A stretch of DNA of 64,000 nucleotides from Escherichia coli. GTDB taxonomy: Bacteria > Pseudomonadota > Gammaproteobacteria > Enterobacterales > Enterobacteriaceae. The stretch is from NCBI RefSeq assembly GCF_030013205.1, contig NZ_CP122648.1. One strand, given 5' to 3'. Shown piece after piece: positions 5,850 to 7,559 of the stretch. Numbering within the stretch: the stretch's first letter is position 1; each line of letters begins with the position of its first letter. The notes under the pieces were generated by a model. That model searched no databases. It was not told where the DNA came from and saw only the letters and a program-made list of their open reading frames with translations. Position numbers and translations under genes: made by a program.

Positions 5850-6578
5850 ATGACCGTAACTCGCCCACGCGCCGAACGCGGCGCATTTCCGCCCGGAACA
5901 GAACATTACGGACGTTCATTATTGGGCGCGCCGTTAATCTGGTTTCCGGCCCCTGCAGCCAGTCACGAAAGTGGTTTGATTCTGGCTGGCACTCACGGTG
6001 ATGAAAACTCTTCGGTCGTCACGCTCTCCTGTGCTCTGCGGACGTTGACACCGTCTTTGCGCCGCCATCATGTGGTGCTGTGTGTGAATCCTGACGGCTG
6101 CCAGTTGGGGTTACGGGCCAATGCTAATGGTGTGGATTTAAACAGAAACTTTCCGGCGGCGAACTGGAAGGAAGGTGAAACCGTTTATCGCTGGAACAGC
6201 GCCGCTGAAGAACGTGATGTCGTATTGCTGACAGGTGACAAACCTGGCTCCGAACCTGAAACCCAGGCGCTGTGCCAGCTTATACACCGCATTCAACCCG
6301 CCTGGGTGGTCTCATTCCACGATCCGCTGGCCTGTATTGAAGATCCCAGACACAGCGAATTAGGCGAATGGCTGGCCCAGGCGTTTGAATTGCCTCTGGT
6401 AACCAGCGTCGGTTATGAAACGCCTGGCTCTTTCGGCAGTTGGTGTGCAGATCTCAACTTGCATTGCATCACCGCAGAGTTTCCGCCCATCTCCTCCGAC
6501 GAAGCCAGCGAAAAATATCTCTTTGCGATGGCAAACTTGCTGCGCTGGCATCCTAAAGATGCAATTCGCCCGTCGTGA
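5850..6578 (+). CDS. mpaA: Murein peptide amidase A (gamma-D-Glu-meso-Dap amidase)
   Basis: ORF 5790-6578; start placed at MTVTRPRAER to give 242 aa. Recognised by sequence recall. Confidence 0.85.
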   Translation: MTVTRPRAERGAFPPGTEHYGRSLLGAPLIWFPAPAASHESGLILAGTHGDENSSVVTLSCALRTLTPSLRRHHVVLCVNPDGCQLGLRANANGVDLNRNFPAANWKEGETVYRWNSAAEERDVVLLTGDKPGSEPETQALCQLIHRIQPAWVVSFHDPLACIEDPRHSELGEWLAQAFELPLVTSVGYETPGSFGSWCADLNLHCITAEFPPISSDEASEKYLFAMANLLRWHPKDAIRPS

Positions 6579-7559
6579 ACTGAAGCGCCGGTTCCACATC
6601 TACCGCCAGCCAGGTCGGTCCGTCAAGATCGGCGAAACTGACCTGCGGCACCAGCGGTAAAGCGGCGCTAATGGCACGAGAGGTACACAACATGCAGCCC
6701 AGCATCAGACTAAAACCTTGTGCACGTGCTTCAGTCGCCAGCGCCAGCGCTTCCGTCAGGCCACCCGTTTTATCGAGCTTAATGTTAACCATCTCATAGC
6801 GCCCTTTCAGCGCCTTCAGATTGCTACGAGTATGACAACTTTCATCTGCGCAAATCGGTAACGGATGAATAAAATTCTCCAACGCCGCATCGTCCTGCGC
6901 AGGAAGCGGTTGTTCAAGCATCGCAACGCCTAAATCCGCCAATAGCTGGCAACGCGCCGCCAACCCTTCTGCACGCCAGGATTCATTTGCATCAACGATC
7001 AGCGTCGCATCGGGCACAGCTGTGCGAATTGCCACCACCCGCTCACTGATAAGATGGTTATCCAGCTTTATTTTCAGTAATTTCGCGCTGCCTGCCAGAG
7101 TGTTGATGCACTATTGGCCATCTGATCAGGCGTACCGATGACTATCGTCTGTGCCGTGGTGACTGTCTCGGGAAGCGTTATGCCGATCAAATCAGCCAGC
7201 GATTGCTGCTGTTTTCGCGCCGCCAGATCCCACAATGCACAATCCAGCGCATTACGTGCTGCACCGGCAGGGAGAATTTTTTGCAACTCCTCCCGTGTCA
7301 GCCCTTTCTCTAATTGCGGCACGACGCTCATAATTTGCGCCATTACCGAGGCATCACTTTCTCCATAACGCGGATACGGCGTGCATTCACCGGTGCCTTT
7401 AATACCTTCTTCTTCCAGTTCAACCACCACCACGCGCGCTTCACTGCGACTTCCCCGAGCAATCACAAACGGGGTATGTAAGGGCCAGGCTTCCTCGAAT
7501 ACCTTAACGGTTCTCATCTTTACTCCTTGTTGTCGCGGTGGTCTGCGGATTAAGCGCAA
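6553..7559 (-). pseudogene. ycjG: L-Ala-D/L-Glu epimerase gene split by a frameshift into two 161-codon ORFs (7074-7559 and 6553-7038)
   Basis: N-terminal ORF ends ...STLWQAARNY at a TGA (7074-7076). The adjacent frame reads ...LAGSAKLLKIKLDNHLISERVVAIRTAVPD continuously into the C-terminal ORF. The two halves add up to the ~321 aa I recall for YcjG. Frame switch lies near 7081-7100, at a short GGCA tandem. Confidence 0.7.

What the first reader, a model, noticed from the sequence alone, without database searches (positions are those of the whole stretch)
6553..7559. ycjG is split by a frameshift at a short GGCA tandem
Two 161-codon ORFs sit in adjacent frames with continuous homology across the break. 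The N-terminal frame stops at 7074-7076 (...STLWQAARNY*), while the other frame reads LAGSAKLLKIKLDNHLISERVVAIR through the same region. The switch lies near 7081-7100 (minus strand CTCTGGCAGGCAGCGCGAAA), where a GGCA unit is repeated. The enzyme epimerises L-Ala-D/L-Glu released by MpaA, so its loss affects the same pathway as the pgrR and IS1 lesions.
Basis: partly seen in the sequence, partly recalled or inferred. Interest (0 to 1): 0.5.

Follow-up and report, generated by a model that had tools for sequence, protein, structure and literature searches.

The report
One-base frameshift in ycjG, probably artefact
The ycjG gene (a cell-wall-peptide recycling enzyme) is broken in this record by one missing G, but the change is found in this nanopore-only assembly alone, is already flagged as a pseudogene in RefSeq, and is more likely a sequencing-consensus error than biology.

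Summary
The window is E. coli ETEC4079 chromosome NZ_CP122643.1, positions 2751730-2815729. ycjG (6553-7517, minus strand) is split by a 1-bp deletion: intact relatives read CAGGCAGGCGCG and the window reads CAGGCAGCGCG. The lost base is a G at window ~7088, in codon 144. It is not a 4-bp change and not a change in GGCA copy number.

As recorded, the allele is null. The 147-aa N-terminal product lacks every catalytic residue. The C-terminal frame has no canonical start before V161, so K149 and K151 cannot be made. RefSeq already marks the gene "frameshifted".

The deletion is a singleton:
- It occurs in 1 of 5,110 matching complete E. coli genomes.
- Its product is absent from a collection of about 15 billion proteins.
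- It is the only difference from clone mate ETEC1748 across the whole 64-kb window.

The assembly is ONT R9.4.1 with medaka and no short-read polishing. Over 391 kb, the sister assembly ETEC1748 carries four private 1-bp indels. One is in a tRNA-Ser gene. Another is a G deletion in the same 7-mer, AGGCGCG.

I estimate about 0.68 for a consensus error, about 0.30 for a real strain-private pseudogene, and about 0.02 for recoding or a two-part enzyme. The pgrR nonsense mutation and the IS1 insertion nearby are each seen in three assemblies of this lineage. Interest is low.

The parts
6553..7517 (-). ycjG (L-Ala-D/L-Glu epimerase) as annotated in RefSeq: pseudogene, 'frameshifted', 965 nt instead of 966
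   Evidence: annotation; length 965, remainder 2 when divided by 3
7074..7517 (-). N-terminal reading frame from the true ATG: 143 native residues + ARNY, stop TGA at 7074-7076. Covers only the capping (MR_MLE_N) domain.
   Evidence: Pfam MR_MLE_N on the equivalent fragment elsewhere
7087..7089 (-). Site of the 1-bp deletion. Intact allele ...GGCAGGCAGGCGCG...; window ...GGCAGGCAGCGCG... One G of the GG in codon 144 is missing. The intact context is the 7-mer AGGCGCG.
7089..7096 (-). Their number is the same in intact alleles.
6553..7110 (-). C-terminal reading frame, open from 7110. It is homologous to YcjG residues 144-321. The first canonical start is GTG at 7038 (native V161). It holds D176, E202, D225 and K247; K149 and K151 lie upstream of any usable start.
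5850..6578 (+). mpaA (murein tripeptide amidase), intact. It converges on ycjG and overlaps it by 26 bp.
   Evidence: PMC12288877
4749..5516 (+). IS1 (768 bp) with a 9-bp target duplication (4740-4748 / 5517-5525), inserted between the SDR gene and mpaA. Context only; shared by clone mates.
2116..3015 (-). pgrR with nonsense mutation AAA->TAA at codon 256 (window 2248-2250). Context only; shared by clone mates.

Best explanation
The missing G in ycjG is most likely a residual consensus error of an Oxford Nanopore R9.4.1 / medaka-only assembly, not a mutation in the strain. The basecaller and polisher under-called one G in the G/C-rich low-complexity stretch GGCAGGCAGGCGCG. This turned an intact 321-codon gene into an apparent pseudogene, which NCBI's pipeline then flagged 'frameshifted'.

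Shown: the lesion, its uniqueness, the sequencing method, and the presence of similar private indels in a sister assembly.

Inferred: that this particular base is such an error.
For: 1. Method. The window is exactly ETEC4079. That genome came from ONT R9.4.1 rapid-kit reads, Trycycler and medaka 1.5.0, with no short-read polishing (PMC10151945). Coverage was ~195x.

2. Singleton. The 61-mer with the deletion occurs in 1 of 5,110 matching complete E. coli genomes. At least 10 same-project relatives have the extra base. Neither possible truncated product is in the ~15-billion protein collection, while the intact allele is on 162 contigs.

3. Local identity. Across the whole 64-kb window this base is the only difference from clone mate ETEC1748.

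4. Indel excess. Over 391 kb, ETEC4079 and ETEC1748 differ by 17 substitutions, of which five lie in genes whose protein accession is unchanged and five are intergenic. They also differ by 7 one-base indels. From my own knowledge, the usual indel:substitution ratio in E. coli is about 1:10.

5. Errors in the sister assembly. ETEC1748 has four private indels (polarised with ETEC4067), although it differs from ETEC4067 by only one substitution in 141 kb. One shortens a C7 run inside tRNA-Ser. These are almost certainly errors from the same pipeline.

6. Shared context. One of those four is a non-homopolymer G deletion in the 7-mer AGGCGCG, the same 7-mer as the ycjG site. It is also a singleton, 1 of 2,150 genomes. 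There are 57 such 7-mers in the 391 kb.

7. Background. At the level of raw ONT reads, deletions are the commonest error, and errors concentrate in homopolymers and short repeats and rise with GC content (PMC8486125).
Against: - The site is only a GG dinucleotide, not a long homopolymer, which is where R9.4.1 consensus errors are usually found.
- Coverage was high (~195x).
- The same pipeline called this site intact in at least 10 sister assemblies, so it is not a constant systematic error.
- ETEC4079 is truly diverged from its clone mates (about 17 substitutions per 391 kb, plus a prophage difference). One or two real small indels are therefore expected on that branch.
- The lineage already carries lesions in the same pathway (pgrR stop, IS1 upstream of mpaA), so relaxed selection on ycjG is plausible.
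- The 7-mer coincidence rests on two sites and was noticed after the fact.
Confidence: 0.68

Rival explanations
1. The deletion is real. It would be a recent -1 frameshift private to strain ETEC4079 that inactivates ycjG. The 147-aa product has only the capping domain. The barrel-domain residues K151, D176, E202, D225 and K247 are not made in one chain. L-Ala-gamma-D-Glu released by MpaA could then no longer be epimerised to L-Ala-L-Glu for PepD. This would be an ordinary young pseudogene, possibly tolerated because the pathway is already disturbed in this lineage.
For: - The lesion and its effect on the protein are shown directly.
- The context is not a long homopolymer, and at least 10 sister ONT assemblies call the site intact.
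- Coverage was ~195x.
- ETEC4079 has real divergence from its clone mates, so about one real indel per 391 kb is expected.
- pgrR K256* and the IS1 upstream of mpaA are seen in three assemblies of the lineage.
- ycjG has been inactivated independently elsewhere by an 11-bp deletion, so the gene is dispensable.
Against: - It is a singleton in every collection searched.
- The assembly is ONT-only.
- The same-project sister assembly shows private indels that are almost certainly errors, including one in the same 7-mer.
- No independent isolate or read set supports it.
Confidence: 0.3
2. The split is functional. Either ribosomes or RNA polymerase slip to restore the frame (recoding), or the two pieces are made separately and assemble into an active epimerase.
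For: Only that both halves remain perfectly conserved in sequence. That is equally expected of a very recent lesion or an error.
Against: - There is no X XXY YYZ slippery heptamer in the 18 nt between the break and the TGA.
- The frameshift is not conserved: 1 of 5,110 genomes.
- The C-terminal frame has no ATG, GTG or TTG before native V161, so residues 144-160, including the K149-x-K151 motif, cannot be made.
Confidence: 0.02

Closest known systems
YcjG, L-Ala-D/L-Glu epimerase of E. coli K-12 (PDB 1JPD; NCBIfam NF011708; enolase superfamily, muconate-lactonizing-enzyme subgroup)
   Same: Same locus (tpx-ycjG-mpaA). The conceptual translation with the G restored equals WP_063085936.1, which aligns over all 321 residues with 1JPD with a handful of conservative substitutions. 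The motif residues K149/K151, D176, E202, D225 and K247 are all encoded.
   Different: In this record the frame breaks at codon 144, so no single polypeptide carries the active site.
Frameshifted pseudogenes as flagged by NCBI PGAP in RefSeq genomes
   Same: The record already carries this flag for ycjG. It is a single-base indel relative to intact orthologues.
   Different: The neighbouring shared pseudogenes (pgrR, ynbD, paaK, fhuE) are seen in several assemblies. This one is seen in a single assembly.
Residual indel errors of ONT R9.4.1 / medaka-only bacterial assemblies
   Same: ONT-only data. The change is a private 1-bp deletion in a G/C-rich short-repeat context. The sister assembly has private 1-bp indels in A- and C-runs, in a tRNA gene, and in the same 7-mer AGGCGCG. 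Raw ONT reads are rich in deletions, and errors concentrate in homopolymers and short repeats (PMC8486125).
   Different: The classic error site is a homopolymer of five or more bases. Here the run is GG only.
Independent ycjG inactivation by an 11-bp deletion (NCTC assembly GCA_900448615.1 and run SRR2000276)
   Same: The same gene is split into an N-terminal and a C-terminal ORF, and the C-terminal 161-aa ORF is identical.
   Different: The lesion is different (ATCTTATCAGT deleted about 35 bp downstream), in a different allele background, and seen in two independent data sets.

Membership tests
L-Ala-D/L-Glu epimerase YcjG (NCBIfam NF011708) | Whole-protein match above the curated cutoff (343 bits) in one polypeptide | tested here: not met
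   The N-terminal product scores 273.9 bits, below 343. The C-frame translation scores 383.9 bits but has no start codon covering residues 144-160. With the G restored, the protein is identical to WP_063085936.1.
L-Ala-D/L-Glu epimerase YcjG (NCBIfam NF011708) | Enolase-superfamily active site in one chain: KxK (K149, K151), metal ligands D176, E202 and D225, and second base K247. The roles come from my knowledge of Gulick et al. 2001; the positions were checked on the sequence. | tested here: not met
   All six residues lie downstream of the break at codon 144. K149 and K151 precede the first usable start, V161.
L-Ala-D/L-Glu epimerase YcjG (NCBIfam NF011708) | Conserved locus between tpx and mpaA | tested here: met
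Genuine (biological) frameshift pseudogene | Reading frame disrupted relative to intact orthologues | tested here: met
Genuine (biological) frameshift pseudogene | Lesion supported by independent reads, isolates or assemblies | tested here: not met
   1 of 5,110 genomes carries it. The truncated products are absent from the protein collection. Raw reads cannot be examined with these tools.
ONT consensus (assembly) error | Long-read-only assembly without short-read polishing | tested here: met
   PMC10151945 methods
ONT consensus (assembly) error | Private to one assembly, and similar private indels present in sister assemblies from the same pipeline | tested here: met
ONT consensus (assembly) error | Read pile-up shows mixed or strand-biased support at the site | not testable with these tools
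Programmed frameshift / recoding | Slippery site, and conservation of the shifted arrangement among relatives | tested here: not met
   There is no X XXY YYZ heptamer between the break and the stop. The arrangement is unique to one genome.

The most novel reading that the evidence does not exclude
The deletion is real and is the third, most recent step in a stepwise dismantling of the murein-tripeptide catabolic branch in a porcine Stx2e/F18-type E. coli lineage. The steps would be the pgrR nonsense mutation, then IS1 cutting mpaA off from the PgrR-controlled ycjY operon, then the ycjG frameshift. [quoted passage not shown]
Probability: 0.08. Interest if true: 0.3.

Novelty: already known. Interest (0 to 1): 0.06.

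Why it matters
It matters little biologically. Whether real or not, this is a single-base frameshift in a non-essential, well-characterised gene, and it is already flagged in RefSeq.

The practical lesson concerns methods. A pseudogene that is private to one nanopore-only assembly should not be read as pathway loss without read-level or short-read confirmation. The recurrence of private G deletions in the 7-mer AGGCGCG in two sister assemblies points to a context-specific error mode that could be screened for.

The neighbouring pgrR nonsense mutation and IS1 insertion are seen in three assemblies of the lineage. They are better material for any argument about peptidoglycan-recycling decay in this lineage.

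Tried and rejected
1. A 4-bp (GGCA unit) slippage was rejected. The alignment shows a 1-bp deletion with the two GGCA units unchanged.

2. 'Common allele' was rejected: 1 of 5,110 genomes.

3. I looked for independent occurrences through exact protein look-ups.
- The 147-aa and 161-aa N-terminal products are absent.
- The 161-aa C-terminal ORF is present on 26 contigs. Of the 10 places examined, eight are contig-end truncations and two carry a different, 11-bp deletion. So it gives no support.

4. A methylation-motif explanation was rejected. I saw no GATC or CCWGG at the site by eye. A strain-specific methylase cannot be excluded.

5. Recoding or a two-part enzyme was rejected. There is no slippery heptamer and no start codon that would include K149 and K151.

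6. A low-coverage error was rejected. Coverage was about 195x.

7. I hoped to compare ETEC4077, which shares a plasmid with ETEC4079 and may be its nearest sister. It was not among the 30 listed hits of the ycjG search.

8. A search for 'ETEC4079' in the paper library found nothing. The source paper was found by topic instead.

9. A negative result would be uninformative, and a positive one was very unlikely after the results in items 2 and 3.

Full report
**What is there.** The minus strand of window 6400-7750 carries a gene whose two halves lie in different frames. The ORF scan lists two 161-codon ORFs at 7074-7559 and 6553-7038. Their translations match consecutive parts of NCBIfam NF011708, L-Ala-D/L-Glu epimerase: profile positions 1-144 at E=1.5e-81 and 144-321 at E=4.9e-115. 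The equal lengths of 161 codons are an accident of the mechanical ORF definition. The true ATG is at 7517, so the upstream product is 147 aa: 143 native residues followed by ARNY and TGA at 7074-7076.

**Source of the window.** A megablast of the locus against 5,426 complete E. coli genomes gave one 100% hit, strain ETEC4079 (NZ_CP122643.1). Every other top hit spans one base more. The window is identical, base for base, to ETEC4079 positions 2751730-2815729. RefSeq already annotates ycjG there as a pseudogene, 'frameshifted'.

**Nature of the lesion.** Alignment with the intact allele of strain W13-16 shows a single-base deletion. The intact sequence is ...CTGGCAGGCAGGCGCGAAA... and the window reads ...CTGGCAGGCAGCGCGAAA.... 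One G of the GG that follows them (codon 144, window ~7088) is missing.

**Consequence for the protein.**
- The intact protein of this lineage aligns over all 321 residues with the solved K-12 enzyme 1JPD, differing only by a few conservative substitutions.
- The enolase-superfamily active-site residues are K149-x-K151, D176, E202, D225 and K247. Their roles come from my knowledge of Gulick et al. 2001; I checked their positions on the sequence. All lie downstream of the break.
- The downstream frame is open from 7110, but its first ATG, GTG or TTG is the GTG at 7038 (native V161). Residues 144-160, including K149 and K151, cannot be translated.
- There is no X XXY YYZ slippery heptamer in the 18 nt between the break and the stop.
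- As written, the allele is null. A recoded or two-piece enzyme is very unlikely.

**How common is the split form?**
- A 61-mer spanning the deletion matches at 99% or better in exactly one of 5,110 genomes, ETEC4079 itself.
- Neither possible truncated N-terminal product is in the ~15-billion protein collection, whereas the intact allele of this lineage is on 162 contigs.
- The 161-aa C-terminal ORF does occur elsewhere. Of the 10 places examined, eight are contig ends. Two (an NCTC assembly and run SRR2000276) carry a different lesion, an 11-bp deletion about 35 bp downstream.
- So ycjG is occasionally lost in E. coli, but this particular lesion is a singleton.

**Relation to the neighbouring lesions.**
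- pgrR carries AAA->TAA at codon 256.
- A 768-bp IS1 with a 9-bp target duplication sits between the SDR gene and mpaA.
- Both are also present in clone mates ETEC1748 and ETEC4067, which have intact ycjG. Both are absent from the more distant W13-16 and ETEC6333.
- These two lesions are thus seen in three assemblies of the lineage. The ycjG lesion is not shared.

**Real mutation or artefact?** ETEC4079 comes from Vereecke et al. 2023 (PMC10151945). The method was ONT R9.4.1 with the rapid kit, Trycycler and medaka 1.5.0, with no short reads. Coverage was about 195x.

I compared 391 kb around the locus between ETEC4079 and ETEC1748, with ETEC4067 as a third genome for 141 kb and at the key sites.
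- Inside the 64-kb window, the ycjG base is the only difference from ETEC1748.
- Over the 391 kb there are 17 substitutions. Five fall in genes whose protein accession is unchanged and five are intergenic. That pattern fits real, selected divergence.
- There are also 7 one-base indels, several-fold more than the roughly 1:10 indel:substitution ratio I know for E. coli.
- Five of the seven indels are in A- or C-runs.
- Polarisation shows four are private to ETEC1748: a +1 in an A-run truncating flgN, a -1 in an intergenic A-run, C7->C6 inside a tRNA-Ser gene, and a G deletion in a TonB-dependent receptor gene.
- ETEC1748 differs from ETEC4067 by only one substitution in 141 kb. These four indels are therefore almost certainly consensus errors.

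The fourth of those indels is not in a homopolymer. It lies in GAGGCGCGTT, which became GAGGCCGTT. That is the same 7-mer, AGGCGCG, in which the ycjG deletion lies (CAGGCGCGAA became CAGCGCGAA). It too is a singleton, 1 of 2,150 genomes. The 391 kb hold only 57 such 7-mers. So the two non-homopolymer deletions, in two assemblies from one pipeline, share a context that covers about 0.1% of the sequence. If this were an in-vivo hot spot, I would expect it to recur among thousands of genomes, and it does not. A context-dependent basecalling or polishing failure fits better. Raw ONT reads are known to be deletion-rich, with errors concentrated in homopolymers and short repeats and rising with GC content (PMC8486125).

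**Arguments the other way.**
- GG is not a long homopolymer.
- Coverage was high.
- At least 10 sister assemblies call the site intact.
- ETEC4079 is diverged enough that one or two real indels are expected on its branch.
- The pathway is already damaged, so a further loss would be tolerated.
- The motif coincidence rests on two sites and was noticed after the fact.

**Verdict.** I weigh the explanations as follows:
- about 0.68 that the missing G is a consensus error;
- about 0.30 that it is a real, very recent, strain-private pseudogene;
- about 0.02 for any functional split.

Under either main reading the finding is ordinary and already annotated. Only reads or resequencing can settle it.

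Noticed in passing
window 2116-3015 (-), stop at 2248-2250: pgrR (regulator of peptidoglycan recycling) carries a nonsense mutation, AAA->TAA at codon 256. It is shared by clone mates ETEC1748 and ETEC4067 and absent from W13-16 and ETEC6333, so it is a lineage feature seen in three assemblies.
   Followed up: partly
window 4749-5516 (+), target duplication 4740-4748 / 5517-5525: A 768-bp IS1 is inserted between the SDR-family gene (627 nt here versus 639 nt intact) and mpaA. This probably uncouples mpaA from the PgrR-controlled ycjY operon promoter. It is shared by ETEC1748 and ETEC4067.
   Followed up: partly
window 6553-6578: ycjG and mpaA converge and overlap by 26 bp. The pair is listed as a convergent excludon / non-contiguous operon (mpaA-ycjG-tpx) in PMC12288877.
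   Followed up: no
L018:1409-1565 and L019:1409-1565: A different ycjG inactivation occurs elsewhere: an 11-bp deletion (ATCTTATCAGT) in NCTC assembly GCA_900448615.1 and in run SRR2000276. It gives a 171-aa N-terminal ORF and the same 161-aa C-terminal ORF.
   Followed up: partly
window 56582-56685 (-): A small 'hypothetical protein, frameshifted' lies between rnb and pdeR. It is annotated identically in ETEC4079, ETEC1748 and ETEC4067.
   Followed up: no
outside the window: L031:8874-8934; L035 around 17544, 49253 and 49399: Sister assembly ETEC1748 has four private 1-bp indels in the 391 kb compared. One is in a C7 run of a tRNA-Ser gene. Another is a G deletion in AGGCGCG within a TonB-dependent receptor gene. 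This points to context-specific ONT consensus errors in this project's assemblies.
   Followed up: yes
outside the window: L016:4360-44265 versus L015: A Rac-like prophage of about 40 kb, integrated at ttcA, is present in ETEC1748 and absent from ETEC4079. The 'clone mates' therefore differ in prophage content.
   Followed up: no
outside the window: L030:33636-33689 versus L031: The ypjA/ehaD autotransporter gene differs by 30 bp in a GGATTTGGGTTC-type tandem repeat between the two ONT assemblies. This could be real repeat variation or an assembly difference.
   Followed up: no
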